A stretch of DNA of 48,769 nt. Origin: a virus. A program made the translations under genes and the position numbers. Location: the UHGV virus genome UHGV-0110022. One strand, written 5' to 3'. The notes beneath the pieces were generated by a model, which was given only the letters and a program-made list of their open reading frames with translations, ran no database searches and had not been told where the DNA came from. Every line of letters begins with the position of its first letter. Position 1 is the first letter of the stretch. Below are positions 3,402 through 48,769 of the stretch, piece by piece.

Positions 3402-4028
3402 TTAGAGTTCGTATTGAACTCCTTTGACTACACCAATGATAAGGCAATTACCATTGATAGGGATGTTGGGATACCGAGGATTTAATGGCACTAAAAACTT
3501 TTGAGGGCCATCGATGACTAATTTTTTTACTGTAGCTTCGTTTGTTCCATCAAGTCGAGCGATGACTATTTTTCCATGACGAGGTTCTGCATCTGGATCT
3601 ACAATCACTGTTGCGCCTTCTGGTATTGTTGGGAGGCCATTAGGGTTAGTCATGGAGTCACCTTTAACCTCTAATGCAAATGAGTTATCACCAATCTTTA
3701 ATGATGTATCTACCCACTTGTCCACTTCACTAAACACTTCTGCTGCCCTGCACTCAGTAAACTGCCCAGCCTGAACCCACGATATTACAGGAACTCTGCG
3801 CATGTTTGTGACGAGTTTGCCTTCAAACTCAGCACCATAAAGAATGTAATCTATTGACGTATTGAAGAACTTCGCTAATTTCGAAAGTGCCTCCCCACCA
3901 GGGGTATTGATGTCTTTCTCCCAGTACCCCACAGCAACGTCGCTTACTCCACAAAATTTACCCAATTCTTTCTGGGACGTTCCGGTAACTCTTCTCAGAG
4001 CTTTTATACGCTGACCAACCGTTTCCAT
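3402..4028 (-). CDS. CI-like prophage repressor (HTH-XRE N-terminus plus S24 LexA-like peptidase C-terminus)
   Basis: N-terminal HTH (QKELGKFCGVSDVAVGYWE), C-terminal S24 signature (GDSM...KLV); divergent from a cro-like gene. Confidence 0.85.
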   Translation of the reverse strand: METVGQRIKALRRVTGTSQKELGKFCGVSDVAVGYWEKDINTPGGEALSKLAKFFNTSIDYILYGAEFEGKLVTNMRRVPVISWVQAGQFTECRAAEVFSEVDKWVDTSLKIGDNSFALEVKGDSMTNPNGLPTIPEGATVIVDPDAEPRHGKIVIARLDGTNEATVKKLVIDGPQKFLVPLNPRYPNIPINGNCLIIGVVKGVQYEL

Positions 4029-4326: not shown

Positions 4327-4915
4327 ATCGATTAACAGAAACCACAGAACGATGAGGCTAACCGTGGGTAAGCATCACTGGAAAGTAGAAAAACAGCCTG
4401 AGTGGTACGTGAAAGCTGTCAGAAAAACTATCGCAGCGTTGCCGGGTGGTTACGCTGAAGCAGCTGACTGGCTGGATGTAACAGAAAACGCATTATTTAA
4501 CCGCCTTCGTGCCGATGGCGATCAGATTTTCCCGCTGGGATGGGCAATGATTTTGCAACGTGCTGGTGGAACTCACTTCATTGCTGACGCTGTGGCGCAG
4601 TCTGCAAATGGCGTCTTTGTGTCTCTTCCTGACGTCGAGGATGTGGACAACGCCGATATTAACCAGCGCCTGCTGGAAGTCATTGAACAGATTGGCAGTT
4701 ATTCCAGACAGATTCGTTCGGCAATCGAAGATGGTGTGGTGGAACCGCATGAGAAGACAGCAATTAACGACGAGCTGTATCTCTCAATTTCGAAGCTGCA
4801 GGAGCATGCAGCACTGGTCTACAAAATCTTTTGCATTTCAGAAAGTAATGACGCCCGCGAGTGTGCAGCTCCGGGCGCCGTGGCGTGTCGTGACTGTGGA
4901 GAAACTAACGCATGA
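4307..4915 (+). CDS. early regulatory protein, CII/YdaT-like (putative)
   Basis: Position immediately after cro; start chosen at internal Met MKNLMDKS (4307), start uncertain. Confidence 0.4.
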
Positions 4916-5090
4916 ACAGTTTAACAACACACTACCGTCGCTCGCAACTGATTGCGCTTCCTGTACCGGGTGGAAAAGCGAAGGTGGAGTATTGCTATGC
5001 AGTTAATGTACCAGGTGACAGGGAAATTGTAACCCACAGCTTTGCTGAGTGGGCTGTGGGTGATTTCAACCGGCAGAAGGAGACAGTCCT

Positions 5091-5270
5091 TTGCGACAAG
5101 TTAACCGCTGGTTCAAAGATCACTACGGAGTGCCCGTCAGAGTCATTCGTTGGGAGCCGGAAACACAACGAGTTATCTACCTCCGCGAAGGCTATGAGCA
5201 TGAGTGCTTCAGCCCGCTCGAACAGTTTCGTCGTAAATTCAGGGAAATAGAGGTCGGTCATGAGCACTAA
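5091..5270 (+). CDS. small hypothetical protein (59 aa, TTG start), not in the ORF track
   Basis: AAGGAG at 5077-5082, 8-nt spacer, TTG at 5091; translation [40 protein letters not shown]... has no internal stop; overlaps the next gene start. Confidence 0.35.
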
Positions 5271-6201
5271 ATTAACCGGCTATGTATGGGATGGTTGCGC
5301 TGCATCAGGCATGAAATTATCCAGCGTGGCAATTATGGCCCGCCTGGCTGATTTCAGTAATGACGAAGGTGTGTGCTGGCCATCAATTGAAACTATTGCC
5401 CGTCAGATTGGCGCGGGGATGAGTACCGTCAGGACGGCTATCGCACGGCTGGAAGCAGAAGGCTGGTTAACGCGTAAGGCGCGTCGCCAGGGTAACCGCA
5501 ATGCGTCGAATGTTTATCAGCTTAACGTTGCGAAGCTTCAGGCAGCGGCATTTTCTCAACTGTCAGATTCTGACCCGTCAAAATCTGACGCATCAAAATC
5601 TGACCCGTCAAAATTTGATGCGTCGAAATCTGGCAAAAAAGCGGGTTTTCACCCGTCAGAATCTGGCGGGGATCCGTCAGTAAAATCAAAACATGATCCG
5701 TCAGATAAAAAACCTTCTCGTCCGGACGCTTCGCAACCGGACACGCAGACGGATGAACAGGATTTTTTAACTCGCCATCCTGATGCGGTTGTATTCAGCC
5801 CTAAAAAGCGCCAGTGGGGAACGCAGGATGATTTGACCTGCGCACAGTGGCTCTGGAAAAAAATCATCGCCCTGTACGAGCAAGCCGCCGAATGTGACGG
5901 CGAGGTGGTTCGTCCCAAAGAACCGAACTGGACAGCCTGGGCAAACGAAATTCGCCTGATGTGTGTGCAGGATGGTCGTACTCACAAACAAATCTGCGAG
6001 ATGTACAGCCGCGTCAGCCGCGATCCGTTCTGGTGCCGTAACGTGCTCAGCCCGTCGAAGTTGCGGGAAAAATGGGATGAGCTTTCCCTGCGCTTATCAC
6101 CGTCCGTCAGCACGTACACCGAAAAACGCGAAGACCCGTACTTCAAATCCAGTTACGACAACGTGGACTACAGCCAGATCCCGGCAGGATTCAGGGGGTG
6201 A
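5260..6201 (+). CDS. replication initiation protein (O-like; N-terminal winged HTH, central repeat linker)
   Basis: N-terminal HTH domain (IARQIGAGMSTVRTAIARLEAEGWL); central pentapeptide repeats encoded by iteron-like DNA repeats. Confidence 0.5.
   Translation: MSTKLTGYVWDGCAASGMKLSSVAIMARLADFSNDEGVCWPSIETIARQIGAGMSTVRTAIARLEAEGWLTRKARRQGNRNASNVYQLNVAKLQAAAFSQLSDSDPSKSDASKSDPSKFDASKSGKKAGFHPSESGGDPSVKSKHDPSDKKPSRPDASQPDTQTDEQDFLTRHPDAVVFSPKKRQWGTQDDLTCAQWLWKKIIALYEQAAECDGEVVRPKEPNWTAWANEIRLMCVQDGRTHKQICEMYSRVSRDPFWCRNVLSPSKLREKWDELSLRLSPSVSTYTEKREDPYFKSSYDNVDYSQIPAGFRG
5563..5710. repeat. iteron-like tandem 15-bp repeats (putative ori) inside the replication gene
   Basis: Five contiguous copies of TCA(A/G)AATCTGAC(C/G)C(G/A) at 5563-5637, further copy at 5656-5670, followed by A-rich stretch. 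Confidence 0.5.
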
Positions 6202-6203: not shown

Positions 6204-6692
6204 ATGAGTCTTTTGAATGAAGTTCAGAAATTCATTGAAGCCCATCCGGGATGTACTTCCGGAGACATTGCGGATGCTTTTGCAGGTTACTCACGGCAGC
6301 GCGTTCTGCAGTCAGCAAGCAAGTTACGTCAGAGTGGGCGTGTGGCTCACCGTTGTGAAGGAGATACACGCAGACATTTCCCGCGCCTGACTGAGAGAGC
6401 GCAGGAACCGGAACCACAACCAGTTCGAGAAACCAGACCTGTGCGCAATTTCTATGTCGGCACTAACGATCCACGGGTGATTTTGTACCTGACCCGCCAG
6501 GCTGAAGAACTGGAGTCCAGGGGCTTATACCGTCGTGCTGCAACCGTGTGGATGGCGGCATTCCGTGAAAGCCACTCCCAGCCAGAACGAAACAATTTTC
6601 TGGCGCGTCGTGAGCGGTGCTTACGGAAAAGCAGCAAGCGCGCTGCATCGGGTGAAGAGTGGTATCTGTCAGGGAATTACGTGGGGGCTTAA
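6204..6692 (+). CDS. PerC/ANR-like transcriptional regulator (putative)
   Basis: Motif LESRGLYRRAATVWMAAF resembles PerC-family regulators of enterobacterial prophages; ATG 6204 just after upstream stop. Confidence 0.4.
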   Translation: MSLLNEVQKFIEAHPGCTSGDIADAFAGYSRQRVLQSASKLRQSGRVAHRCEGDTRRHFPRLTERAQEPEPQPVRETRPVRNFYVGTNDPRVILYLTRQAEELESRGLYRRAATVWMAAFRESHSQPERNNFLARRERCLRKSSKRAASGEEWYLSGNYVGA

Positions 6693-7345
6693 TGAGTAAT
6701 AAATATTGCCAGGCGCTGGTGGAACTGCGGAACAAACCAGCCCATGAACTGAAGGAAGTGGGCGATCAGTGGCGCACGCCGGACAACATTTTCTGGGGAA
6801 TTAACACCCTGTTTGGCCCGTTTGTTCTGGATCTGTTTACTGACGGTGATAACGCCAAATGTGCCGCGTATTACACGGCAGAAGATAACGCGCTGGCGCA
6901 TGACTGGTCAGAACGTCTTGCGGAGCTTAAAGGTGCTGCCTTTGGTAATCCCCCATACAGCCGCGCCAGTCAGCATGAGGGGCAATACATCACCGGCATG
7001 CGTTACATCATGAAACATGCCAGTGCCATGCGTGATAAGGGCGGGCGCTATGTTTTCCTGATCAAAGCTGCCACCAGCGAAGTGTGGTGGCCGGAAGAGG
7101 CGGACCATATTGCTTTTATTCGCGGGCGTATTGGTTTTGAACTGCCTGCCTGGTTTATCCCGAAGGATGAGAAGCAGGTGCCGACAGGCGCTTTCTTCGC
7201 TGGTGCTATTGCTGTTTTCGACAAGACCTGGAAGGGACCGGCAATCAGCTACATCGGGCGCGATGAACTTGAGGCATGTGGTGAAGCCTTTCTGGTGCAG
7301 GTTCGCCAGCAGGCGGAAAAACTGGTCAGGGAGATGGCGGCATGA
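6692..7345 (+). CDS. phage DNA N6-adenine methyltransferase (Dam family)
   Basis: NPPY catalytic motif (GNPPYS); TAATG coupling with upstream gene. Confidence 0.7.
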   Translation: MSNKYCQALVELRNKPAHELKEVGDQWRTPDNIFWGINTLFGPFVLDLFTDGDNAKCAAYYTAEDNALAHDWSERLAELKGAAFGNPPYSRASQHEGQYITGMRYIMKHASAMRDKGGRYVFLIKAATSEVWWPEEADHIAFIRGRIGFELPAWFIPKDEKQVPTGAFFAGAIAVFDKTWKGPAISYIGRDELEACGEAFLVQVRQQAEKLVREMAA

Positions 7346-7668
7346 CGACGTTAACTCAATGCCAGCAGCAGGTGCTGGATATGCTGATTTCTTACCAGAA
7401 AGAGCGTGGCTTTCCGCCAACCAATCAGGAGGTGGCAACCATGCTGGGATACCGTTCAGTGAATGCAGCGGTGGAGCATCTTCGCGCACTGGAGAAAAAA
7501 GGCGTCATCACGATAAAGCGTGGCGTGGCCCGGGGAATAACGCTTCATACCGCGGTGAAGGACGACGACAGCGAGGCGGTCGGGATTATCCGCTCACTGC
7601 TTGCCGGTGAGGAAAACGCCAGGCTGCGTGCAGCCCACTGGTTACATGAGAGGGAGCTGAAAGTATGA
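7342..7668 (+). CDS. LexA N-terminal DNA-binding-domain protein (no peptidase domain)
   Basis: Resembles LexA residues 1-70 (QQQVLDMLISYQKERGFPPTNQEVATMLGYRSVNAAVEHLRALEKKGVI); only 108 aa. Confidence 0.6.
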   Translation: MTTLTQCQQQVLDMLISYQKERGFPPTNQEVATMLGYRSVNAAVEHLRALEKKGVITIKRGVARGITLHTAVKDDDSEAVGIIRSLLAGEENARLRAAHWLHERELKV

Positions 7669-8054
7669 AGCTAATACTGCCTTTTCCGCCCAGCGTGAAC
7701 ACGTACTGGCGACACCCCAACAAAGGGGCGTTTGCTGGTAAGAGCCTGATAAGCGCGGCGGGGCGAAAATTCCAGAGCGCGGCGAGCGCAGCAATAGTTG
7801 AGCAGTTACGTCGTCTGCCGAAACCAACGTCGGCACCTGCTTCAGTGGAGATCGTGTTGTTTCCTCCGGATAACCGGATCCGCGATCTGGACAACTATAA
7901 CAAGGCGCTGTTTGACGCCCTGACCCACGCGGGTGTGTGGGAAGACGACAGCCAGGTGAAAAGAATGCTGGTGGAGTGGGGACCGGTTATCCCGGAAGGG
8001 AAGGTCGAGATCACTATCAGTAAGTACGAGAAAACGGCGGGTGCAGCCGCCTGA
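7665..8054 (+). CDS. rusA: Holliday junction resolvase RusA
   Basis: RusA motifs LPFPPSVNTYWRH and RIRDLDNYNKALFDALTHAGVWEDDSQV. Confidence 0.85.
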   Translation: MKLILPFPPSVNTYWRHPNKGAFAGKSLISAAGRKFQSAASAAIVEQLRRLPKPTSAPASVEIVLFPPDNRIRDLDNYNKALFDALTHAGVWEDDSQVKRMLVEWGPVIPEGKVEITISKYEKTAGAAA

Positions 8055-10791: not shown

Positions 10792-12045
10792 ATGATGATA
10801 TTGTTTATGCAGGTTGTTACATGTATGGGCGGAAAAATGGATATCTTTGAGTCGTTTAAAGCAGAGAAGCAGAAAAACCATAAAGTTAATATTTACTATA
10901 CTCCTTCGAAACCAGTTTCTTCACCTTCGAATTTGAGAGGGAGGAATGAAGAAATACAGAAGATTTTAGCAGCATTAACAACCCCTGGTCGCCATTGTAT
11001 GATCTATGGTGATCGTGGTATCGGCAAAAGTTCCCTTGCTCTATCTACTCTTGAGGGAGGAAAAGAGCATGAGATTTTACCAGAAATAGTTTTTCAATAT
11101 CGCTGTATAAAAAATACAACGTTTAAAGACATTATTGAAAAAGCTGCTATTTTTATCGATGAAGCCTATAAACATGATAAAGTTGAAACTACTAAGAAGT
11201 ATGGTGCTAGAGCTCGTTTTTTAGATTTATTCAGCTTGGAAGGCTCTAGGGAAGAAAAAATTACTATTGAAAAAGAAGAGTTGACGGCAAATAAAGCTGC
11301 TTCTGTTTTACATCACCTCGAGTCTGTACTTCTTATTGATGAATTTGATGTTGTCAAAGAAGAAGTAAAGCATGAAGTAGCAGAGTTTGTAAAGCAACTT
11401 AGCGATGCTGGAAGTCCATTTAAAGTTTTGATAGTTGGCATAGGTTCTGATGGTGCAGCTTTAATGGCTGGGCATCAGTCAGTAATACGTTGTATGCATG
11501 AAATAAAGTTGCCGCGTGTTGAAGATAAATATCTATCAGAGATAATCGAAAGCGGTGAAAATGGATTGGGTTTGACTTTTTCGCAGCCAATAAAAAAATC
11601 TATTATCGAGATTAGCAGCGGATTCCCTTATTTTACTCATTTATTATGTAAGGAATGTGCAGAAGAGGCTATCCGCCAGTCAAAAACTATTATTGATAGA
11701 AGTATTTTTGAACAAGCCTTGATCGTTGCAGTGAAAAATACTGAAGGTCAATTAAAACGTTGTTACGATCTCGCCGTAACATCTTCTAGAACCGACATGT
11801 ATCCCAAGATCCTTTTATCTGCGGCAAAATTTAAAAATGAACAATTTAGCGTCAAAAATTGGATAGAGCAAATTGCTGAAGATCATGGCTTAGAGCTTAC
11901 ATATGGAAGTATGAATAATTATACTGGTAAGTTAATAAAAGCTGAGCGAGGAGAAATTCTTCAGTTAGTTAGAAGAGGGGTATATAAAATCACGGATCCA
12001 AGAATGCCAAGTTATATTCTTATGTGCCACAATGCGATCCCTTAA
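10792..12045 (+). CDS. stand-alone AAA+-type P-loop ATPase (cargo gene)
   Basis: Walker A GDRGIGKSS, Walker B LLIDEFD; strongly AT-rich relative to flanks; start uncertain (ATG at 10792, 10825 or 10837). Confidence 0.6.
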   Translation: MMILFMQVVTCMGGKMDIFESFKAEKQKNHKVNIYYTPSKPVSSPSNLRGRNEEIQKILAALTTPGRHCMIYGDRGIGKSSLALSTLEGGKEHEILPEIVFQYRCIKNTTFKDIIEKAAIFIDEAYKHDKVETTKKYGARARFLDLFSLEGSREEKITIEKEELTANKAASVLHHLESVLLIDEFDVVKEEVKHEVAEFVKQLSDAGSPFKVLIVGIGSDGAALMAGHQSVIRCMHEIKLPRVEDKYLSEIIESGENGLGLTFSQPIKKSIIEISSGFPYFTHLLCKECAEEAIRQSKTIIDRSIFEQALIVAVKNTEGQLKRCYDLAVTSSRTDMYPKILLSAAKFKNEQFSVKNWIEQIAEDHGLELTYGSMNNYTGKLIKAERGEILQLVRRGVYKITDPRMPSYILMCHNAIP

Positions 12046-36382: not shown

Positions 36383-36428
36383 ATTCGTAATGCGAAGGTC
36401 GTAGGTTCGACTCCTATTATCGGCACCA
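36383..36428 (+). tRNA. thrW: tRNA-Thr 3' fragment (anticodon loop to CCA end); prophage att core / attR-like
   Basis: ATTCGTAATGCGAAGGTCGTAGGTTCGACTCCTATTATCGGCACCA matches the 3' part of tRNA-Thr(CGU) as recalled; 5' acceptor strand GCCGATA absent upstream. Confidence 0.65.
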
Positions 36429-37008
36429 TCAACAGAAAATCCCGTAAAAACAGCATTCTTTAGCATGTTTATCTAACGGTTTGTAACTTCTGTTCTAACG
36501 TCTGTTAGCACTGGTAAACGCCTTTGCGTTGTATCGGCTCAAGTATTGTACAACGTACTGGCGGGTAGTTACCAGGCTCAAGCCCGAACAGCATTAGAAA
36601 TTATGCCATCCCTTGAAGCTAAAAGAGTTGCCGGACTCTCTAAACACATCACTTGAACCCTTAGCGATACGTTCCGCGCTTCGTGCGGCGCTCAATGATG
36701 CTACACGTCGAGATGACGTTGCAGAAAATAAACAGGCGTAATGTTGGGAAGACTAACCGGATCGGGAAAGAATCCGGCTCTGCCACGGTTTCGATCACCG
36801 GAGTATAACGATCACCTGATAAGAGAACGTGCTAAGGCTTTATCCTCCCTGCGAAGGGATTACACCCTGCGGAAGCGCTACGCGCCGCCTTTTCTTATGT
36901 GCCCAACACGGCACGTAATGGTCATCCATTATCTGCACCATTGTAACTTTCGTTGTACTGCCTCTCTGATGTACGTTGAGCGCTGGCAGATTCAGCGGAG
37001 GGGATATC

Positions 37009-37167
37009 ATGTCAAAAGCTAACCAAAAAGCAGCCACGAAGCGCAACAACCGTAAGATTCACGCCCGTAAATTCCTGGCAACACCAGAGGGGAAAGCCTG
37101 GCTTGCTAAGAAGCAGGAAGAGCGAGAGGAAATCAAGTTGGCGCGAGCTGCAAACTTGATGTTTTGA
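37009..37167 (+). CDS. small basic protein (52 aa)
   Basis: GGAGGGG RBS 5 nt before ATG. Confidence 0.4.
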   Translation: MSKANQKAATKRNNRKIHARKFLATPEGKAWLAKKQEEREEIKLARAANLMF

Positions 37168-37178
37168 GATGGGGCTAA

Positions 37179-37979
37179 TCAGCCCCTATTGCCCCTATGC
37201 TTTTTTTCGAATCTTGTCACAACTCTATCCAACCATTTGGGTTCTTCTCTAAGATCTGAGTAGTAACAATTTTCTGGAACCGCGTTCCAGAAAGCAGTTA
37301 TTGCGTTAGCAAAATCTACAAATTGATCTTCTGAGACATGTAAATCGTCATGGTTAGGGACAATCTGCGTGCCTCTAACATCGGTGGGGTTTGGGTAATA
37401 CTCAGGATGATCAACTGATAGTGTTTGATGTGCAGGGCCGTCTCCATGCTTGTATACGTTTACCACCAAGTTACAGGCTTTTATCCTTTCTCCGTATTCG
37501 GTTCCATTGATTGTGAGGCCAATCCATTCGAGCAAATCAATTAGCTGATGGAAAGTTAAATTCCAGATCATGGGGGTAATCAATTCTCTTTCACACCAAT
37601 TACTTAGCTCTTTGATAGTATGTTCTCTTAGTTTTTTATCAAACTGATGATACATACCTGCTGTCAACGCCAACAATACGGTATTTTGCATCTCCAGAAG
37701 CGACCATACATAATAAATTCCCTCATGATAGGCTTGCTCGTAGGCCGCCATTGGGTCATCGTTATCTTGATCAAAATACTCAGCAGTAGTCTCCAAAAAC
37801 TGTTGTTCTCTCTTCTCTGCTTCTTGTTCTAAATCACCAAACTGAGAGAGAAGCCGCCGCCTTGCCTCAGAAACGTAAAATTCATGGGGTTCAAGAAAGT
37901 ATGGAAGATCGGCTCTGGCTAACCAGAAGGTGACAAAATTTTCAGTAGACATACATTTCCTCAATGAAGCGATAGACAT
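37179..37979 (-). CDS. hypothetical protein (266 aa)
   Basis: Long ORF; no recognisable motif; start uncertain. Confidence 0.45.
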   Translation of the reverse strand: MSIASLRKCMSTENFVTFWLARADLPYFLEPHEFYVSEARRRLLSQFGDLEQEAEKREQQFLETTAEYFDQDNDDPMAAYEQAYHEGIYYVWSLLEMQNTVLLALTAGMYHQFDKKLREHTIKELSNWCERELITPMIWNLTFHQLIDLLEWIGLTINGTEYGERIKACNLVVNVYKHGDGPAHQTLSVDHPEYYPNPTDVRGTQIVPNHDDLHVSEDQFVDFANAITAFWNAVPENCYYSDLREEPKWLDRVVTRFEKKHRGNRG

Positions 37980-38115
37980 TTTGAGGTTATGTTATCTTCG
38001 GTGAGGGTTAAAATCCTCAACTGATTCAATGGAATTGTCATTTGGTTTGAAATGCGGTAAAAGAATAAAATTCGTAATGTACGCTTTGCAGAAACAATCT
38101 GAAAATGAGGTGGTT

Positions 38116-38343
38116 ATGAGTGAACGTTACGAATTTTTACCCAATTGCTTCCTGAAAGTCTCTATCTCATCGGGTTACTTTACTGCCATCCTTGATGGTT
38201 CGCTTCCTCCTGATACCCCTGGTTCTGTTCATGCTGATAATGCCACGCAAGTCATAATCGTACTCGATTCCTACTTCCAATTGACTGACTTACAGCATCA
38301 AGGAATTGCTAATTATCTTTGCTCTCAAGGGATGGAACTTTGA
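38116..38343 (+). CDS. hypothetical protein (75 aa)
   Basis: GAGG RBS before ATG 38116. Confidence 0.3.
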   Translation: MSERYEFLPNCFLKVSISSGYFTAILDGSLPPDTPGSVHADNATQVIIVLDSYFQLTDLQHQGIANYLCSQGMEL

Positions 38344-38798
38344 TAGATTGGTTGCTTAATGTTGATAATCTGACCATGCTTGCCGCATGGGCTGGGTTTG
38401 CACTATCCATTTTCCAGCTATTAAAATCCAGAACAGATCTACGCCTTTTCTTAGGTTGCGATCAGTATGAAGACAGAATTTATGTTTCCAACAAAAGCGC
38501 CCATGATGTGACGATAAGTTCGGCGGGCATAGTAACCGCCAGCGGACGCCTTAGCGATTGTTCTAACGAACATTGTGATGAATACATGATCAGCCCCATG
38601 TTGCCACGCCGATTAAAAGCCCGTGATGAAATGATCTTAGAAGTACCATTCATCAATAAGGCTCACCATAATAAGGTGCATCATCGCGGAGGGGTGTATG
38701 TTACTACATCTGATGGGAAGCTGTTCAGTGATGTTAGTTGGCTGCGTCGTCGCTGGTGGTGGATATTGTCTCTGATCCTACGTGATTCCAAGCAGTGA
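38319..38798 (+). CDS. hypothetical protein, possibly membrane (start uncertain)
   Basis: ORF with hydrophobic N-terminal segment; no clear RBS. Confidence 0.3.
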   Translation: MLSRDGTLIDWLLNVDNLTMLAAWAGFALSIFQLLKSRTDLRLFLGCDQYEDRIYVSNKSAHDVTISSAGIVTASGRLSDCSNEHCDEYMISPMLPRRLKARDEMILEVPFINKAHHNKVHHRGGVYVTTSDGKLFSDVSWLRRRWWWILSLILRDSKQ

Positions 38799-38856
38799 TT
38801 ACTTATACACCGCACCAGACCACGCTGGTTATCTGCTTGTCTTCCTTCTTCAATCG

Positions 38857-39054
38857 TTACTCCTCTTCAAAGGTCATTGTGTAGCGGCATTGCTGCGACG
38901 GCCTGAGCGTCACTGTCTCCGTAAAGTTGGCGTTGGAATAAACGCAAATCTTCGCGTTGTCTGTCTCCTGTTCGTCACTGAGAATCAGGGTTATCTGTCC
39001 GGCATTCGCCAGGACTGGCATTACTGTCAGCGTCAGCACAAGCAAGCGTTTCAT
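38857..39054 (-). CDS. small secreted protein (65 aa with signal peptide)
   Basis: AGGAG RBS 7 nt before ATG; signal peptide MKRLLVLTLTVMPVLANA; directly downstream of the recombinase. Confidence 0.45.
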   Translation of the reverse strand: MKRLLVLTLTVMPVLANAGQITLILSDEQETDNAKICVYSNANFTETVTLRPSQQCRYTMTFEEE

Positions 39055-39064
39055 GCGTATCTCC

Positions 39065-39697
39065 TTATAAGTCCATCTCATTGATCACACGGCTAACGGC
39101 TTGCTTGTCTAAATCCAGATAGCGCCTGGTGTCAGTGATGTTGCTGTGATTAAGCACGGTCATAGCTAAAGCGATGTTGTTTGCTGAACGCTTGTAGATG
39201 GCATTCCCGCCAGCTTTGCGGAAGCTGTGAGCTGATACAGTGCCATGAATACCGATAGCTTTAGCGGCCTCTGCGATCTGCTTGCTCACTTCTTCGCGTC
39301 GTACAGGCGCTTGCTTGTTCATTGATCGGTTACGCTGGCTTCTGAACACATGCACATCATGCGGATACTCAGCACGGCGACGAGCAATCATCTGCACCAC
39401 TGGAGCAGGGAGAGTGAGGGCTTTACGCTTCCCTGTCTTCTGTTCTTCTATGTCAATCTCACCGTTGATCACTTCGTCGAAGCGTAACGCTACGGCATCC
39501 CCCACACGCAGTACAGCGGCTTGCATCATTAACGTAACGTCAGCTATCAGGCTCTTGTTATGAGCGTTTAGCCACTCCCTGATCGCTTTGGCTTGCTGTT
39601 CGTCTAACACTACTGCTCTGTTCAATTTACCCTCCCATAAAGACACACATCTAAACTCAACGAAACAAATAATATGATCAATTTCAGTAAGTTGCAA
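39065..39697 (-). CDS. small tyrosine recombinase (catalytic domain only, FimB/FimE-size)
   Basis: Catalytic residues in LRVGDAVALRFDEV (Arg), HSFRKAGG (His-x-x-Arg), TDTRRYL (Tyr); possible TTG start at 39625 after GGGAGGG RBS, giving 186 aa. Confidence 0.55.
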   Translation of the reverse strand: MQLTEIDHIICFVEFRCVSLWEGKLNRAVVLDEQQAKAIREWLNAHNKSLIADVTLMMQAAVLRVGDAVALRFDEVINGEIDIEEQKTGKRKALTLPAPVVQMIARRRAEYPHDVHVFRSQRNRSMNKQAPVRREEVSKQIAEAAKAIGIHGTVSAHSFRKAGGNAIYKRSANNIALAMTVLNHSNITDTRRYLDLDKQAVSRVINEMDL

Positions 39698-40384
39698 TAT
39701 AAATGATCAAAAATCGAACTGTCTTGTGTGTGGTAAATGGCGCGATTGCGTCCAGTGCTTAACGACCTCCAGGGCCGCCTCCAGATCGAAAATTTCTTCT
39801 CCTCTAAATATCTTGAACAAAATCATGATGTTGGCATTTATAAACATGTGTTTGAACATTGCCAAATCCTCAACTCTGCACGAAGAACAGCGGCAACAGC
39901 GGAACATCACACTACCAATGCTTGTGTGTGGTTATTGTCTATCTCATTGATTTAAATCTGATAAATGTAAGGTTGTTAGGCGAGGGCGGGGCTAACCTGC
40001 CTGTATGCACAGATTATGCGGAGTTTATGCACTTGAAACTGAGTGTGTAATGAAATGATTAGAATGCTAATCAATTGGTGGATTTTGGCATGAAAAAGAA
40101 ACATCGTTTCATTTTAGAAAACTCGTTCAGCACATTGCACCTGTCATGAAACTCCTCATTGTGGACAATGATCGCTGTGAGCCGCATGGCGCAAGGCTTT
40201 ACGCAAAGTGAGTGATGGTTACTATCTTGCTGACTATGGCAACTTTACCCATGTAACAACGGCAATCTTTACCTGTCATTTAAGATAGGCTTAGCTATGA
40301 TTATCGTGTTGTTTTGATAGGAATAACCTCTCGTTACTCTTAGTGTTGTTGCATGGATGAATCAGAGTTAGTTGGGGGCGTTAT

Positions 40385-40464
40385 ACATCAAAATGATGTA
40401 TAGATGCATGGGATACGCATCAAATTGATGTATGGATCGGCAAACTACACATCAAATTGATGTT
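40385..40464. repeat. three phased palindromic repeats (putative regulator binding sites)
   Basis: CATCAAA(A/T)TGATG at 40386, 40418, 40450 with exact 32-bp spacing. Confidence 0.5.
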
Positions 40465-41014
40465 CTATACAAAGAGATTCTAAAAGCGATCTCTAAAAGA
40501 GAGCTTTTAGAAGATCTTGTTAAAGATTCGCTTTGCTGGCGCGTATCGCCTGGCAAGTGACCTGATTCGCCTTTGGGGGCTACTCGGTCAGCCGCTCACG
40601 ACGCAGCGTAGCGCATCTGTCTGTGATTGTGCCAGGGCTTCGCCCTCGTGAAACGAGGCACAGAAGCTATGCGCCGTGTGCGCAATGTCTTTCAGGATAA
40701 CTTCTGCCTGTCTTCCATGCTCCGCATTCATCCATGCAAAGTTAGCCCACGGCTAAGGATTCACTGGTCGCTGATGGCTCCAGTTCATCCAGCCTCAATC
40801 CAATACCATCACCTACTATCCTGATAACTAACGTTATCCCTCAGTAGTTGTGCTATTGGTTTCGGGAGTAAGTGCCAGAGGGCGGCGGTAACGCAAACGG
40901 AACGCCCCAGACGCGCTGAGAGCGAATTTGAGAGGATAGGGAGGGGATTGCAACTCTCAGGCTTTCAAACCTGTTAGAAAGCGATAGACCGCGTTTTATG
41001 ATGACATGAATGAG

Positions 41015-41094
41015 TTGATCACAACGTGGAAATGCGCTATAATTTGAAAGGGATTGAAATAAGTGTTGACATTTAAATCATTTCATGTTAAAGT
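41015..41094 (+). promoter_or_regulatory. tandem sigma70-like promoters
   Basis: TTGATC-17 nt-TATAAT (41015-41043) and TTGACA-17 nt-TAAAGT (41066-41094). Confidence 0.45.
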
Positions 41095-41189
41095 AAATGA
41101 TGTAGGGTGATGAAAGCATTCATCCCGTCCTCATCTCAGGCATCCAGCCTAACGCAAACAATCCAACTTACACCGCACTATCAGGCAAC

Positions 41190-41438
41190 GTGATTAACGT
41201 TCTCCCTGGATGGTGTTTCTGTGTTTCTAACGCAAGGAGAACCAAAATTAAGTATTTTAATCCAGAACTTGTCTTCGAGGCTTTAAAGGCCGGAAGCCAG
41301 ACGCGAAATGCAATAAACAGCCAGCGAGCAGCCGCACAACGGCAAGGATATTTCGAACACGCTGAAAGATTGCGTAAAGGAATCGAACTTTACGATCAAT
41401 GGAAAGCTGAACAGGCTGAAACCACCACCAACGAATAA
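41190..41438 (+). CDS. hypothetical protein (start uncertain)
   Basis: ORF with internal AAGGAG at 41233 but no in-frame ATG after it. Confidence 0.3.
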   Translation: MINVLPGWCFCVSNARRTKIKYFNPELVFEALKAGSQTRNAINSQRAAAQRQGYFEHAERLRKGIELYDQWKAEQAETTTNE

Positions 41439-41456
41439 ACCAGAAGGAGAAACCAA

Positions 41457-41633
41457 ATGAGCGAAATCCAGAAGAAGAAACCAGCCGGAACATTCGTAAA
41501 ACTGCCGGATGAAGTGTTTAGTACTTTGTTCAAAGAGGCGCGAGCGAGAGGCGTAACAGTGCAGGAGATGTTAATTGACGCTGCAACCACACTTTCCACA
41601 TCAATTAAGAACGGAGAACGTTCTACCAAATAA
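41457..41633 (+). CDS. small DNA-binding-like protein (58 aa, possible ribbon-helix-helix), not in the ORF track
   Basis: AGAAGGAG RBS 7 nt before ATG; translation MSEIQKKKPAGTFVKLPDEVFSTLFKEARARGVTVQEMLIDAATTL... Confidence 0.4.
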   Translation: MSEIQKKKPAGTFVKLPDEVFSTLFKEARARGVTVQEMLIDAATTLSTSIKNGERSTK

Positions 41634-41647
41634 GGATACACCCTAAC

Positions 41648-42388
41648 ATGACTGACATTATAAACAGTAAGGCTTTTAGTTTCACCAACACCGAAGACGC
41701 ATTTAACGAATGCACCAGGATCACCAATCTTAAAACAGGCGTAACAGAGTCCCTGTCTCCTGCTGATAAGCAGTTTTACGTCAGAATGCGCCATCGTTAT
41801 TATCGCTTTGCGATAGAGTTGGGCGGTACTTATTACGATGACATTGATCAACTTGGTGCAAGTATTGGTGTCAGCTCGGCTACGGCAACACGTATTGTTG
41901 CAAAGTTGAAGAAAATCGGACTGATCGCCAGTAATAAGCCAAAGCGCTCTAACCAATGGACTATAACGCCACTCACGCCGCAAAACTTCACCTTTGAACG
42001 TGATCGTAATGCGATGGAACGTGATTCCGCGCCGGAATGGGTAGATTGTCTGAAACATCCCGTGTTTGGCAAAGCTAAAGAAGACGTAGCGCCAGAGGAA
42101 GAAAAACAGCAGTCAGTGCCAGAAGAGGCCAAAGCAGATCCGAAGCCGGAGAAGCCAAAGAAAATGCCTACGAAGAAACCCGCCTCCATTCCAGCTAAAG
42201 ATATTAAGATAGAGCCAGTTAATTTAAACTTTCTTGAGGGTTATCGGGATGAATGGGAGAATCCTGAAAAGAATCTACCAGTTTCACAACATCCGAAAAT
42301 CAGATGGCTACTTATTAACGGATACCTGGACACAGAGAAGAATCCAAAACTTAAACCAATCTACGAGGAAATAGAACATTTATGCTGA
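41648..42388 (+). CDS. HTH-containing protein (246 aa), possible replication/regulatory protein
   Basis: Winged-helix-like segment IGVSSATATRIVAKLKKIGLI; Lys/Pro/Glu-rich linker. Confidence 0.45.
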   Translation: MTDIINSKAFSFTNTEDAFNECTRITNLKTGVTESLSPADKQFYVRMRHRYYRFAIELGGTYYDDIDQLGASIGVSSATATRIVAKLKKIGLIASNKPKRSNQWTITPLTPQNFTFERDRNAMERDSAPEWVDCLKHPVFGKAKEDVAPEEEKQQSVPEEAKADPKPEKPKKMPTKKPASIPAKDIKIEPVNLNFLEGYRDEWENPEKNLPVSQHPKIRWLLINGYLDTEKNPKLKPIYEEIEHLC

Positions 42389-42843
42389 AAACGGTTATAC
42401 CCAAACAATACAACGAACGTGATCTTAACATCATCCATCTTGCCAGTTTATTAAATCCAGAAGTTGAAAGAGGTGTTGCATTCGAACAAGCGCAAGAACT
42501 TGTAGATGTTTACGCTGAGCGAGGTGAATCAAGTTACGCTAATGCTCTTGTTACGCTATTCAATGCAGCGATGAAGCCACCGAAAGAGATAGAATGTAAA
42601 ATGACATCCCCACATCTTCACGATAAGAATCTGTCTCCTTCGGAACGTCTGGTATTAATGCACCTCGAATCACTGCCATCATTAACAAATGTGAAACAGG
42701 AGTCAATAGCGATAGTGTTGGGGATAAGTGTGGCAACTGTATCCAGTGCGATTCGCAAGCTCCGCCGCAATGATTATCTAACTACTACGTTAATCAAACC
42801 TGGTCGCGGTAAAGGATGCGACATTACACTTACGACTAAATAA
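42382..42843 (+). CDS. winged-helix transcriptional regulator-like protein (153 aa)
   Basis: HTH-like segment IAIVLGISVATVSSAIRKLRRNDYL. Confidence 0.4.
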   Translation: MLKTVIPKQYNERDLNIIHLASLLNPEVERGVAFEQAQELVDVYAERGESSYANALVTLFNAAMKPPKEIECKMTSPHLHDKNLSPSERLVLMHLESLPSLTNVKQESIAIVLGISVATVSSAIRKLRRNDYLTTTLIKPGRGKGCDITLTTK

Positions 42844-42947
42844 CAACAATCGGGAAACTTTTATGATTACTGCTTTATGGTGGTTCACCATATTCTATGG
42901 CGTTTACGTTATAACCAGACAAGGAGTTTCCCCTCTACGAGGAATGA

Positions 42948-43331
42948 ATGGGACGAAAAGAACGAAGTAACCTTGTTAGAATCGAAAAAGCCACACGCAT
43001 CAGCAAACGTAAATACACCTCTTCTCTACAAGACCTCGCACGAGAGTCTATTCCTGGTGAGATGGTGACAACTATTAAAGAATATCCCGCAGTAGTACCA
43101 AATGGATTAGAGTTTGAACTATTGCAGGATGTTCTATCGTCAACGGATAACGTTTATTACAAACCACGACGCAGACGCGAATATATTATAGATAGTAGCC
43201 ATCTCAAGAAATGGCAAATAGCAGGATTTGAACATTACGCCGATTATATTGGGTATTGTCAAACCTGGGGGCTATCCCAGCACACACAAGAGTTTGATAT
43301 TCTCTTTGACGACAAGGAAAACAATGAATAA
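42948..43331 (+). CDS. hypothetical protein (start uncertain)
   Basis: ORF only. Confidence 0.25.
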   Translation: MGRKERSNLVRIEKATRISKRKYTSSLQDLARESIPGEMVTTIKEYPAVVPNGLEFELLQDVLSSTDNVYYKPRRRREYIIDSSHLKKWQIAGFEHYADYIGYCQTWGLSQHTQEFDILFDDKENNE

Positions 43332-43662
43332 TAAAACTATGGACACAGTGAACACCCTAATTAACTCTTTCCACGACAACTGGCATTTACCAACCTTACA
43401 GCTTGTTAATGCAGCGTGGCGTGAGAGAACGCCCTCCGCGCTTCTGGAAGCGGTGCAATACACTGAACAGGCAATCACTGCCCTTGAACATCTGCAAACG
43501 TCTGTAGCTCGTTTGGTGCAGCGTGACGGCAGTTCGATCACACCAGAAGAAGCGTGGCGTGTAGCTAATGACCTTGAGGAGCTTGCTTGCTCTCTGCAAT
43601 ACATCACCGTTGAACTCGGAGAGCTTTCCATCCAGATCGCGGAAGAATGCGCCATAACATAA
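43324..43662 (+). CDS. hypothetical protein (112 aa)
   Basis: AAGGAAA RBS before ATG 43324. Confidence 0.35.
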   Translation: MNNKTMDTVNTLINSFHDNWHLPTLQLVNAAWRERTPSALLEAVQYTEQAITALEHLQTSVARLVQRDGSSITPEEAWRVANDLEELACSLQYITVELGELSIQIAEECAIT

Positions 43663-43677
43663 AAGTTACTAAATGTC

Positions 43678-43706
43678 TTGACATTATGTGCTATATGTGT
43701 CATAAT
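43678..43706 (+). promoter_or_regulatory. near-consensus sigma70 promoter
   Basis: TTGACA(43678-43683)-17 nt-CATAAT(43701-43706). Confidence 0.55.
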
Positions 43707-44236
43707 GAGTTATAGGGTAAGTATTCGAATCACTTCACCCTCGTATGTCAATACGCACTCCTTGAGAATGCCGTTCCCATAGCGGCATTCTCTCCCTCTG
43801 AATGCTATTTCTGAAAGTGTTGGTTCTTTGTCTTGTTTGTTCCGAAGGAATGCGCGGGATGTAATATCTCGTTGTGTTGGTATTGCATCGCAATCACCGC
43901 GCATCTCCGACTTTTTCAGAAAGGGCATTCGCTCTTTGCTCATTCATTCCGTTAGGATGAATGTAGTCAGACTGAATAAACGCCGTCAGCGGTAGTTACG
44001 TTCAGGCTGGCAATCTCTTATTACTATTCCAGTGGTGATATTGAGATTCCATTCCCACTTCTCGCCATGACAGAAGGGCTTCTGTTTTGAAGTGGGAGCA
44101 ATGACGGGCGATCCTACTTCTGTTATTCGTAACAGTTGCGCCCTTCATTTTTTCAAGAAGCCATTCTTTAACATCATAATCCTCCGAAACGAAAATGATT
44201 TTAACAGAATGCTTTCTAACAAGGGCATATTCTCCA

Positions 44237-44258
44237 GGGGCTTAATCGCCCCTTTTTA
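44237..44258 (+). terminator. rho-independent terminator at the end of a structured leader
   Basis: GGGGC-ttaatc-GCCCC followed by TTTTT. Confidence 0.55.
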
Positions 44259-44328
44259 ACAATCTGCATGTAACACTTCCGTTATTAATGGAAGGATAAA
44301 CGCAGTTATAACGCGAAGGAACAACACA

Positions 44329-44544
44329 ATGTTCTTAATAAACAATCGCGACCGAATCCTAAAATACAAATCCGAAGTGATTCAAGTTAATCCTGAGTTA
44401 ATAGCTAAAGTGGCTGAAATGGCAGGATGTACCGTTGAAGAAATAGAAAAAGCTGTAGACCAGTATTTCCCTTCTGAGGACACACCTCAACTTAGTATGC
44501 AGGAACGGATCGCAATCAAATCCAAGGAAATCAAACAACAATGA
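44329..44544 (+). CDS. hypothetical protein (71 aa)
   Basis: AAGGAA RBS; first gene of the capsid-like cluster. Confidence 0.4.
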   Translation: MFLINNRDRILKYKSEVIQVNPELIAKVAEMAGCTVEEIEKAVDQYFPSEDTPQLSMQERIAIKSKEIKQQ

Positions 44545-44900: not shown

Positions 44901-44916
44901 TCAAGGAAGATAAATA

Positions 44917-45948: not shown

Positions 45949-46067
45949 TGAGCAAGCGGGAGCCTGACCCGCTGGAAATAATCAGGCTATTGAATATGGC
46001 GTGTGAACGTTGGGAACATCTCCCCAGTGTTCCCGCCCTTTTTTATTTCCAGAATGAGGAAAGATAA

Positions 46068-48102: not shown

Positions 48103-48253
48103 TTGTGATGTAAATCACATGGGAATACCACATATTGCGCTCGCTTTGTAAAGGATGTGTATATGTGGTGTTTTTCTTTGACGCCGCTTCGTTTGTCCCT
48201 TACCCTTAAAAGGGTAAGCAGTTCACTCTTTATCTCCAAGATGAGGTGTTTTT

Positions 48254-48382: not shown

Positions 48383-48440
48383 AAATATCTCAAAGTGCCC
48401 ATAGCGGCGCTTATTCATTTGAATGTCTGGAGAGAATTAA

Positions 48441-48719: not shown

Positions 48720-48769
48720 GTTATCGGGGGATGGATAATCCCCCCTTAATTACTGGACGTTGTAATTTA

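What the first reader, a model, noticed from the sequence alone, without database searches (positions are those of the whole stretch)
6204..7668. Accessory regulatory block: PerC-like regulator, Dam methyltransferase and a LexA DNA-binding-domain-only protein
Seen: three consecutive translationally coupled genes. The LexA-like protein has the N-terminal DNA-binding domain but no S24 autocleavage domain, so it could occupy SOS boxes without being inactivated by RecA. Established: PerC homologues on prophages regulate host virulence loci in pathogenic E. coli. Inference: this block may rewire host SOS or virulence regulation; the PerC assignment is from a short recalled motif.
Basis: partly seen in the sequence, partly recalled or inferred. 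Interest (0 to 1): 0.45.

Follow-up and report, generated by a model that had tools for sequence, protein, structure and literature searches.

The report
Common prophage genes with truncated LexA
The three genes are real and correctly identified (a PerC-type regulator, a DNA adenine methylase, and a LexA-like DNA-binding protein lacking the self-cleaving half), but they are independently swappable accessory genes of a very common, already annotated E. coli prophage, and what the truncated LexA binds is still untested.

Summary
Observation confirmed. Window 6204-7668 (+) holds three overlapping ORFs: a 162-aa YfdN-type protein (winged helix plus PerC domain), a 217-aa phage Dam methyltransferase, and a 108-aa protein made of a LexA DNA-binding domain plus a two-helix tail, with no S24 peptidase domain.

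The start/stop overlaps run from the replication gene O through rusA. The genes therefore lie in the early rightward operon of an SfII/SfV/CPS-53-type lambdoid prophage at thrW.

The block matches 2689 of 5426 complete E. coli genomes and 50 phage records, and is annotated there with the same names.

It is not a functional unit. Dam is missing in 28 of 79 near-identical loci. In relatives at 50-60% identity, all combinations of PerC-like and Dam presence or absence occur.

The prophage carries no SOS-box-quality site. All 11 tail-bearing relatives lack LexA's contact residue Glu44, and their recognition helices differ between lineages. That fits lineage-specific operators, as for GIL01 gp6, better than a universal SOS-box mimic. 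SOS-box binding is not excluded.

No link to virulence is shown. Verdict: known genes, with an untested but testable function for the truncated LexA. Low to moderate interest.

The parts
5260..6201 (+). O-like replication initiator (313 aa). This is context: the gene upstream of the block, whose stop lies 2 nt before the yfdN-like ATG.
   Evidence: HTH_36 4.3e-11 and a weak DnaD_N hit. Annotated as replication protein O in phage records. Stop/start spacing read.
6204..6692 (+). YfdN-type long-form PerC-family protein (162 aa)
   Evidence: PF06069 at 36.2 bits, above the gathering cut-off of 22.6. phrog_1324 'transcriptional activator' 1.5e-77. RefSeq annotates it as 'yfdN: PerC family transcriptional regulator'.
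6210..6383 (+). N-terminal winged-helix domain of the YfdN-type protein (residues 3-60)
   Evidence: AF2 model: H3-13, H19-25, H31-44 and a beta-hairpin at 47-60, pLDDT about 85-93. Superposes on MarR/ArsR/BlaI winged helices at about 2 A over about 60-65 residues, but all Foldseek E-values are above 0.001. Weak MarR/BilQ sequence hits.
6471..6650 (+). C-terminal PerC domain: three helices, residues 90-149
   Evidence: AF2 model: H90-105, H109-122, H126-149, pLDDT about 88-94. The Pfam PerC match covers residues 98-149. A disordered linker at 63-84 separates it from the winged helix.
6692..7345 (+). Phage N6-adenine DNA methyltransferase (Dam, 217 aa). An optional cassette.
   Evidence: PF05869 1.6e-45. 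TIGR01712 at 253.8 bits against a cut-off of 97. PADLOC MTase_II 1.4e-157. An NPPY motif (FGNPPYS) is visible in the translation. Absent in 28 of 79 near-identical loci.
7342..7668 (+). Truncated LexA homologue (108 aa): DNA-binding domain plus helical tail, no S24 domain
   Evidence: PF01726 2.9e-19 over residues 1-65. Best solved-structure match is the E. coli LexA DNA-binding domain 1lea, 7.1e-16. phrog_362 6e-59.
7342..7548 (+). LexA-type winged helix-turn-helix (residues 1-69). The recognition helix S39-L47 reads SVNAAVEHL, against SPNAAEEHL in E. coli LexA.
   Evidence: The AF2 model superposes on DNA-bound E. coli LexA 3jso_B at rmsd 1.3 A over 68 residues with 50% identity. Alignment.
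7564..7650 (+). C-terminal two-helix tail (residues 75-103), proposed to replace the LexA dimerisation domain
   Evidence: AF2 model: H75-88 and H93-103, pLDDT about 84. The pattern EA..L.R.L.A.E..AR..A...L...G is kept in relatives down to about 40% identity.
7665..8054 (+). RusA Holliday-junction resolvase (129 aa). Context: always the next gene, with its start overlapping the LexA-like stop (ATGA).
   Evidence: PF05866 1.6e-15. Found adjacent in essentially all LexA-like loci examined.
3402..4028 (-). Prophage repressor (208 aa). Context: the homologous gene in a neighbouring genome is annotated 'LexA family protein', which would make the prophage SOS-inducible in its own right.
   Evidence: RefSeq annotation of the locus that is 99.9% identical over the block (L002). 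Not scanned here against Pfam.

Best explanation
Window 6204-7668 is part of the early rightward operon of an SfII/SfV/CPS-53-type lambdoid prophage integrated at thrW. By analogy with lambda, this operon should be transcribed after repressor loss, downstream of cro, cII and O and upstream of rusA, the KilA-N gene, DUF968 and Q. The slot between O and rusA holds independently exchangeable accessory genes.

(1) YfdN-type protein. It is a winged-helix DNA-binding domain tethered by a disordered linker to a PerC domain. By family analogy with Pch, it most likely relieves H-NS silencing at sites chosen by its own winged helix. This step is inferred.

(2) Dam. It is an orphan phage N6-adenine methyltransferase, with GATC specificity assumed from the family. 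It would methylate replicating phage DNA. It is a dispensable cassette bounded by ATGA at both ends.

(3) The 108-aa protein. It is a truncated LexA homologue with an intact LexA-fold winged helix. It has no S24 domain, so it cannot autocleave and RecA cannot switch it off by the LexA route. I propose that it dimerises through its conserved two-helix tail. I propose that it binds a LexA-box-like palindrome that is specific to the phage lineage rather than the canonical SOS box. It would act as a phage-timed transcription factor in the manner of GIL01 gp6.

Shown here: the gene structures, the domains, the fold, the operon position, the independent presence or absence of the genes, and the variation in the recognition helix.

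Inferred: dimerisation, the nature of the DNA target, and the regulatory outcome.
For: - Domains and coupling.
- Operon context and thrW location.
- Independent presence or absence: Dam is absent in 28 of 79 loci that are 97-100% identical, with yfdN TAA overlapping the LexA-like ATG. In loci at 50-60% identity the PerC-like gene is absent, 78 aa (PerC only) or 139-152 aa (winged helix plus PerC). Dam is absent, alone, extended, or paired with a Dcm. All four combinations occur.
- LexA fold: rmsd 1.3 A to 3jso over 68 residues.
- Contact residues S39, N41, A42 and E45 are kept; E44 is changed to V (residue list from PMC13416735).
- Position 44 is never Glu in the 11 tail-bearing relatives. Their helices differ by lineage: AAVE, TIAG, AATD, GAFE, AAAS. 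Position 44 is Glu in 11 of 13 full-length LexA representatives.
There is no perfect CTGT-N8-ACAG in positions 1 to about 36000.
- The tail is helical and conserved to about 40% identity.
- Precedent: GIL01 gp6 is a truncated LexA homologue that binds its own palindrome and activates a late promoter (PMC6182141).
- Pch acts as an H-NS anti-silencer (PMC4764244).
- yfdN in CFT073 rises 12.6-fold together with prophage tail genes under NO stress (PMC5320621), consistent with expression as part of a prophage programme.
Against: - No operator was found. Palindrome scans of the non-coding stretches in five divergent representatives gave nothing shared.
- Lambdoid late expression is normally handled by Q, so a gp6-like activator role has no obvious vacancy.
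- Four of the five LexA contact residues and the RGI wing motif are retained, so canonical SOS-box binding remains possible.
- Dimerisation through the tail is inferred from a monomer AF2 model of moderate confidence (pLDDT 77).
- No experimental data on this protein, or on YfdN function, were found in the searchable literature.
- The Dam target sequence was not tested.
Confidence: 0.45

Rival explanations
1. Uncleavable SOS-repressor mimic. The truncated LexA binds canonical host SOS boxes during lytic growth, when host LexA has been cleaved. It re-represses SOS genes such as sulA, recA and SOS-controlled toxins, or LexA-controlled antirepressors of rival prophages.
For: - 43% identity to E. 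coli LexA over the shared region and 50% over the 68 superposed residues, rmsd 1.3 A.
- S39, N41, A42 and E45 and the RGI wing motif are retained.
- The LexA wing is credited with fixing half-site spacing (PMC8565304), so N8 spacing could survive loss of the C-terminal domain.
- There is no SOS box in the prophage itself, so any canonical target would be in the host.
- The homologous repressor of a neighbouring prophage copy is annotated as a LexA-family protein, which suggests SOS induction.
- From my own knowledge, not checked here: a stabilised LexA N-terminal fragment keeps repressing in vivo (Neher et al. 2003).
Against: - E44 is replaced in all 11 tail-bearing relatives. Positions 42-45 vary between lineages, even though, as far as I know, enterobacterial hosts share one SOS box. 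Cellular LexA representatives keep E44 in 11 of 13 cases.
- The gp6 precedent recognises a different site (PMC6182141).
- No binding data exist.
Confidence: 0.25
2. The three genes form one functional module that rewires host virulence or SOS regulation together. An example would be the PerC-like protein activating LEE or other host loci.
For: Tight translational coupling. PerC-family membership. Group-1 Pch proteins on prophages activate ler (PMC5931665, PMC4764244). PchE changes curli and flagellar expression (PMC6265319, PMC7369912).
Against: - The genes are present or absent independently of one another.
- The coupling extends to O and rusA, so it does not delimit a unit.
- The block matches 2689 of 5426 complete E. 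coli genomes, and K-12 carries a homologous yfdN (PMC5931665).
- PchD and PchE barely activate ler (PMC5931665).
- YfdN differs in architecture from PerC and Pch because it has an extra winged helix.
Confidence: 0.05
3. The truncated LexA is not a transcription factor. It is a DNA-targeting or accessory subunit for neighbouring DNA-processing proteins: RusA, the DUF968 HNH-like protein, or the O-dependent replication machinery.
For: - It is always immediately upstream of rusA and translationally coupled to it.
- A LexA DNA-binding domain fused to the C-terminal HNH-like part of DUF968 exists in two sequences that are 80% identical (P0158; L151:5001-5747). In L151 the fused gene sits just upstream of Q.
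- The operon has no P-like helicase loader gene next to O.
Against: - 73 of 79 loci selected by DUF968 have no LexA-like gene, so DUF968 does not need it.
- As far as I know, RusA acts as a homodimer without a partner.
- Chimeric ORFs of adjacent genes are common in these databases (for example P0002, P0021 and P0286).
- Winged helices are common fusion partners.
Confidence: 0.1
4. The 108-aa ORF is a decaying remnant of a captured lexA gene and has no current function.
For: Residues 78-90 still align with the LexA linker and cleavage-site region (LLAGE against VAAGE).
Against: The full-length ORF is conserved from near-identical copies down to about 40% identity, with a family-specific tail pattern and fixed synteny. 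Its closest cluster has thousands of members. The Ala-Gly pair is not conserved (LLANEE, LLVGEE), so the tail has evolved into something else.
Confidence: 0.05

Closest known systems
GIL01 gp6 (Bacillus thuringiensis tectivirus), a phage-encoded truncated LexA homologue (PMC6182141)
   Same: It is phage-encoded. It consists essentially of the LexA winged-helix DNA-binding domain without the S24 domain. It is 44% identical to its host LexA over that domain, compared with 43-50% here. It is made from an early operon.
   Different: gp6 is shorter: about 14 residues follow the HTH and there is no two-helix tail. It comes from a Gram-positive tectivirus whose lysogeny depends on host LexA. Its operator (GaCACAnnTGTGaC at P3) and its activator role are shown experimentally. 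Here no operator or role is known, and late control belongs to a Q antiterminator. Direct sequence relatedness to gp6 was not tested.
E. coli LexA repressor (TIGR00498; PDB 1lea, 3jso)
   Same: The N-terminal fold is the same: rmsd 1.3 A over 68 residues with 50% identity. S39, N41, A42, E45 and the RGI wing motif are retained.
   Different: There is no S24 peptidase or dimerisation domain (residues from about 75 to 202). The score of 70.8 bits is below the equivalog cut-off of 110.95. E44 is V. The cleavage-site Ala-Gly is only vestigial. A family-specific helical tail replaces the C-terminal domain.
PerC (EPEC) and PchA-E (EHEC), Pfam PF06069
   Same: The C-terminal three-helix PerC domain scores above the Pfam gathering threshold. 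The protein is prophage-borne.
   Different: YfdN-type proteins carry an additional N-terminal winged helix and a disordered linker, giving 162 aa. From memory, PerC and Pch are roughly 90-105 aa. No activity on ler or any promoter has been tested. PchD and PchE show that family membership does not predict LEE activation (PMC5931665). The gene sits in the early phage operon.
E. coli K-12 YfdN (CPS-53/KpLE1 cryptic prophage)
   Same: Same family and same position next to the O-like gene. RefSeq names the near-identical gene yfdN. It has been described as the K-12 PerC homologue (PMC5931665).
   Different: From my own knowledge, the K-12 copy sits in a defective prophage that has lost the downstream LexA-like and rusA genes. 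Its function is unknown there too.
Phage N6-adenine methyltransferase family TIGR01712 / PF05869. From my own knowledge, this is the family of the phage T1, HP1 and VT2 Dam enzymes.
   Same: A full-length match far above the cut-offs. An NPPY catalytic motif is present. It is an orphan enzyme with no cognate endonuclease nearby.
   Different: Nothing notable. GATC specificity is assumed from the family and was not tested.

Membership tests
LexA repressor (S24 family; NCBIfam TIGR00498 equivalog) | N-terminal LexA-type winged helix-turn-helix DNA-binding domain | tested here: met
   PF01726 at 69 bits over residues 1-65. Rmsd 1.3 A to 3jso.
LexA repressor (S24 family; NCBIfam TIGR00498 equivalog) | C-terminal S24 peptidase and dimerisation domain with the Ser119/Lys156 dyad | tested here: not met
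   The protein ends at residue 108. There is no S24 hit in Pfam. Only model positions 1-91 of 203 are matched, at 70.8 bits, below the cut-off of 110.95.
LexA repressor (S24 family; NCBIfam TIGR00498 equivalog) | Ala84-Gly85 autocleavage site | tested here: inconclusive
   LLAGE (residues 86-90) aligns with VAAGE of LexA. The Ala-Gly pair is replaced in close relatives (LLANEE, LLVGEE), and AF2 models the segment as a helix.
LexA repressor (S24 family; NCBIfam TIGR00498 equivalog) | Binding to the SOS box CTGT-N8-ACAG through S39, N41, A42, E44 and E45 | tested here: inconclusive
   Four of five residues are kept; E44 is V (residue list from PMC13416735). E44 is absent in all 11 tail-bearing relatives. 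DNA binding itself cannot be tested with these tools.
Phage-encoded truncated LexA homologues (GIL01 gp6 type) | Phage-borne, LexA DNA-binding domain only, no S24 domain | tested here: met
   PMC6182141 for the type.
Phage-encoded truncated LexA homologues (GIL01 gp6 type) | Binds its own palindromic operator at a phage promoter and activates it | not testable with these tools
   No shared palindrome was found in the non-coding regions of five divergent loci. DAP-seq or EMSA is needed.
PerC family (Pfam PF06069) | Sequence match to the PerC domain above the curated threshold | tested here: met
   36.2 bits against 22.6, residues 98-149. The domain is modelled as a confident three-helix unit.
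PerC family (Pfam PF06069) | Activation of the LEE1/ler promoter, the function that defines PerC and PchA-C | not testable with these tools
   No data exist for YfdN. It was only deleted as a precaution in a ler-lacZ host. PchD and PchE barely activate ler (PMC5931665).
PerC family (Pfam PF06069) | Small single-domain protein | tested here: not met
   162 aa, with an additional N-terminal winged helix and a disordered linker. A 78-aa PerC-only form occupies the same slot in relatives.
ANR (AraC negative regulator) family, NCBIfam NF033650 | Score above the curated cut-off | tested here: not met
   24.4 bits against a cut-off of 32.
Phage N-6-adenine methyltransferase (TIGR01712 / PF05869) | Full-length match above the curated cut-off, with an NPPY catalytic motif | tested here: met
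   253.8 bits against 97.05. PF05869 1.6e-45. FGNPPYS is visible in the translation. PADLOC MTase_II 1.4e-157.
Phage N-6-adenine methyltransferase (TIGR01712 / PF05869) | GATC-specific adenine methylation | not testable with these tools
   Assumed from the family. A methylome or DpnI/MboI digestion is needed.
   Dam is absent in 28 of 79 near-identical loci. All four PerC-like/Dam presence-absence combinations occur in more distant loci.

The most novel reading that the evidence does not exclude
The truncated LexA, carried by prophages in roughly half of sequenced E. coli, is an uncleavable LexA mimic made only during lytic growth. It re-silences the host SOS regulon, or LexA-controlled antirepressors and colicins of competing elements, after host LexA has been destroyed. 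That would be a phage-encoded SOS shut-off or anti-competitor device.
Probability: 0.2. Interest if true: 0.65.

Novelty: already known. Interest (0 to 1): 0.25.

Why it matters
As found, this is routine prophage content. Near-identical copies are already annotated as a PerC-family regulator, Dam and a LexA DNA-binding-domain protein in phage SfII, Stx2c phages and thousands of E. coli genomes.

The useful residue is a cheap, well-defined experiment. A RecA-insensitive LexA paralogue is present in about half of E. coli strains, and no binding site or function for it was found in the literature searched. If it touched the SOS regulon, it would affect how lysogens respond to DNA-damaging antibiotics and how co-resident prophages, including Stx phages that carry the same gene, compete on induction. 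If it has its own operator, it would be a lambdoid counterpart of GIL01 gp6.

Showing that the three genes are independently swappable also warns against reading translational coupling as evidence of a functional module.

Tried and rejected
- Canonical SOS boxes in the window. Only two perfect CTGT-N8-ACAG sites exist (39225 and 44120). Both lie outside the prophage, in a second element. With up to one mismatch there are 25 sites against 16.4 expected by chance.
The best score in the prophage is 10.3 bits, which is below every site used to build the matrix and within the range of shuffled sequence.
- Search for a phage-specific operator. Inverted repeats were sought in the cI-cro, rusA-kilA, Q-downstream and pre-holin regions. 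Perfect 6+6 palindromes were sought in the non-coding stretches of five divergent loci. Nothing was shared or co-varied with the recognition helix.
- Solved structures for YfdN by sequence: none. Foldseek gave only generic winged-helix matches, all with E above 0.001.
- The LexA-domain::DUF968 fusion as Rosetta-stone evidence. The fusion is real, but 73 of 79 DUF968-selected loci lack any LexA-like gene, so I did not adopt it.
- The UTI89 filamentation fragment (PMC6206680). It covers Rha, the O-like gene, the PerC-like gene and the start of Dam, but not the LexA-like gene. It cannot be assigned to any one gene.
- A regex tally of recognition helices failed because the pattern was too strict. 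It was redone with an HMM alignment. The 'short' class there is contaminated by fragments of ordinary LexA, so only the full-length class was used.
- Literature searches for experimental work on this LexA-like protein or on YfdN function found none. Zhang et al. 2010 and Porter et al. 2005 are not held.
- Rfam and tRNA scans of the whole window found nothing.
Full report
**What is there**

Window 6204-7668 (+) contains three ORFs at exactly the coordinates given.

- ORF1 (6204-6692, 162 aa) matches Pfam PerC at 36.2 bits, above the gathering score of 22.6, over residues 98-149. It also matches PHROG 1324, 'transcriptional activator'.
- ORF2 (6692-7345, 217 aa) is a phage N6-adenine methyltransferase. 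It matches PF05869 at 1.6e-45 and TIGR01712 at 253.8 bits against a cut-off of 97. It has an NPPY motif and matches PADLOC MTase_II.
- ORF3 (7342-7668, 108 aa) matches the whole 65-position LexA_DNA_bind profile at residues 1-65. It has no S24 domain. Against the NCBIfam lexA equivalog it covers only positions 1-91 of 203 and scores 70.8, below the cut-off of 110.95.

The junctions are TAATG (6690-6694) and ATGA (7342-7345).

**Context**

The same start/stop overlaps continue outwards. The O-like replication gene (5260-6201) stops 2 nt before ORF1, and ORF3 overlaps rusA (7665-8054) through ATGA.

A locus that is 99.9% identical over the block, in E. coli 22AR0750, places it in a prophage next to tRNA-Thr (thrW) and proA. 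The gene order there is integrase, yfdT-yfdP, a LexA-family (S24-type) repressor, cro, a cII-like gene, DUF4222, O, the PerC-like gene, Dam, the LexA-like gene, rusA, KilA-N, DUF968, the antiterminator, lysis genes, an HK97-type head and a contractile tail.

The three genes are therefore part of the early rightward operon of an SfII/SfV/CPS-53-type lambdoid prophage. By analogy with lambda, they should be expressed after repressor loss rather than in the quiescent lysogen.

The 1.9-kb region matches 50 phage records at 95-99% identity, including SfII, mEp460 and many Stx2c and Stx2a phages. It also matches 2689 of 5426 complete E. coli genomes. In those records it already carries the names PerC family (yfdN), phage N-6-adenine-methyltransferase and LexA family or LexA DNA-binding-domain protein.

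No Rfam family or tRNA is present in the window.

**The three genes are not a unit**

Among 79 IMG/VR loci whose LexA-like gene is 97-100% identical, Dam is present in 51 and cleanly absent in 28. In the loci without Dam, the yfdN stop overlaps the LexA-like start (GGGGGCGTAATGACGACG in L075). The cassette is bounded by ATGA on both sides, so gaining or losing it preserves the coupling.

In relatives whose LexA-like protein is only 50-60% identical, the gene order O, LexA-like, rusA, antirepressor-like gene, DUF968, Q is kept. The slot after O varies in two independent ways.

- The PerC-like gene may be absent, a 78-aa PerC-only protein, or a 139-152-aa winged-helix-plus-PerC protein.
- Dam may be absent, alone, extended to 390-460 aa, or paired with a 626-685-aa C5-methyltransferase.

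All four presence/absence combinations occur. Translational coupling here reflects dense operon packing, not a shared function.

**The truncated LexA**

It is 43% identical to E. coli LexA over the shared region. Its best solved-structure relatives are the LexA DNA-binding domain 1lea (7.1e-16) and full-length LexA entries.

An AF2 model (pLDDT 77) has the three helices and the beta-wing. It superposes on DNA-bound LexA (3jso) at 1.3 A over 68 residues.

Five LexA residues are implicated in DNA contact: S39, N41, A42, E44 and E45 (Knegtel 1995, as cited in PMC13416735). Four are retained here, and E44 is Val (SVNAAVEHL against SPNAAEEHL). The RGI wing motif is also kept. The wing is credited with the fixed half-site spacing of LexA (PMC8565304).

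After a low-confidence linker, residues 75-88 and 93-103 form two helices. Their hydrophobic pattern is conserved in relatives down to about 40% identity. I infer that this tail replaces the lost dimerisation domain.

Residues 86-90 (LLAGE) align with the LexA cleavage site VAAGE. The Ala-Gly pair is not conserved in close relatives (LLANEE, LLVGEE), so it is a vestige rather than a working site.

**What does it bind?**

This cannot be settled by computation. Three observations argue against a simple SOS-box mimic.

- The prophage has no SOS-quality box. There is no perfect CTGT-N8-ACAG in positions 1 to about 36000. A canonical target would therefore have to be in the host.
- None of the 11 tail-bearing family members has Glu at position 44, whereas 11 of 13 full-length LexA representatives do. 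Positions 42-45 differ between lineages: AAVE, TIAG, AATD, GAFE, AAAS. Their hosts, as far as I know, share one SOS box. That pattern is what co-evolution with lineage-specific operators would produce.
- The only characterised phage-encoded truncated LexA, GIL01 gp6, binds its own palindrome at the late promoter and activates it (PMC6182141).

Two points count against my preferred reading. I found no candidate operator, and Q already controls late genes. I therefore give the 'own operator' mechanism about 0.45 and the SOS-mimic about 0.25.

**The PerC-like protein**

The AF2 model gives a confident N-terminal winged helix (residues 3-60). It resembles MarR, ArsR and BlaI at about 2 A, though only with weak Foldseek E-values. 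A disordered linker (63-84) follows, then a confident three-helix PerC domain (90-149).

Classical PerC and Pch proteins consist of the PerC domain alone. Pch works by relieving H-NS silencing (PMC4764244). The natural inference is an anti-silencer that its own winged helix targets to particular sites.

The evidence for any virulence role is thin. Only PchA-C activate ler; PchD and PchE barely do (PMC5931665). PchE instead affects curli and flagella (PMC6265319, PMC7369912). YfdN has only ever been deleted as a precaution (PMC5931665). The gene is also found in about half of complete E. coli genomes, and K-12 carries a homologous yfdN.

**Expression hints from the literature**

- CFT073 yfdN rises 12.6-fold under NO stress together with prophage tail genes (PMC5320621).
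- A UPEC screen for promoter activity lists fragments from the rusA-to-O stretch as weakly urine-induced (PMC5404293).
- A UTI89 fragment spanning Rha, the O-like gene, the PerC-like gene and the start of Dam, but not the LexA-like gene, causes filamentation when over-expressed (PMC6206680).

**Verdict**

The 'block' concept is refuted, and the SOS and virulence rewiring ideas are untested and somewhat weakened.

The genes are already known and annotated. What remains open is the binding site and role of a widespread RecA-insensitive LexA paralogue. That is a straightforward experiment rather than a surprise.

Noticed in passing
window 6692-7345; L075:5999-6003: The Dam gene behaves as a precise insertion/deletion cassette bounded by ATGA at both junctions. 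28 of 79 near-identical prophage loci lack it and join the yfdN stop directly to the LexA-like start (TAATGACG).
   Followed up: yes
window 10792-12045 (+): A 417-aa P-loop NTPase lies between the Q antiterminator and the holin, the position that stx genes occupy in Stx phages. It matches nSTAND1 (37.4 bits, above the gathering score) and AAA_22, with a weak hit to the PADLOC candidate PDC-S59. It may be a defence or moron gene.
   Followed up: partly
window ~36383-48769: A second integrative element sits in tandem with the prophage at thrW. It has two tyrosine recombinases, a 'major capsid protein' and a TolA-like protein. In other strains it lies directly next to tRNA-Thr (L003). It holds the window's only perfect CTGT-N8-ACAG sites (39225 inside a recombinase gene, 44120 intergenic) and the best SOS-PWM hit (41650, 13.5 bits).
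   Followed up: partly
L151:5001-5747; protein P0158: Two sequences that are 80% identical fuse a LexA DNA-binding domain to the C-terminal HNH-like part of DUF968. In L151 the fused gene sits just upstream of Q, in a phage that also encodes a RecA-like protein. However, 73 of 79 DUF968-selected loci have no LexA-like gene.
   Followed up: partly
L096:3823-5004, L146:3757-5007, L087:1647-3029, L084:2126-4006, L125:5327-6082: In related phages the O-to-rusA slot collects DNA-modification genes. These include Dam with a 180-240-aa C-terminal extension that has no Pfam match, and Dam followed by a 626-685-aa C5-cytosine methyltransferase. There is also an occasional 251-270-aa ORF with no Pfam hit between the LexA-like gene and rusA.
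   Followed up: partly
window 4912-5250 and 5091-5270 (+): Two ORFs overlap in different frames between the cII-like gene and O: one of 112 aa and the 59-aa DUF4222 ORF. Both recur in divergent related loci (for example L096, L106, L138). These may be genuine overlapping genes or a recoding site.
   Followed up: no
window ~5500-5690 (inside the O gene): The O-like protein contains a repetitive DPSKSDASKSDPSKFDASKS stretch, and the alternative frames read QNLTRQNLT repeats. This probably reflects iteron-like DNA repeats of the replication origin inside the O gene.
   Followed up: no
proteins P0129, P0131, P0148: Some distant homologues carry two LexA DNA-binding domains in tandem in one polypeptide and no S24 domain. 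They would be single-chain pseudo-dimers.
   Followed up: no
L001 (UTI89 4997073-4999597): A published UTI89 fragment that causes filamentation when over-expressed covers part of Rha, a small ORF, the O-like gene, the PerC-like gene (yfdN2) and the start of Dam in a sister prophage. The responsible gene was not identified in that study.
   Followed up: partly
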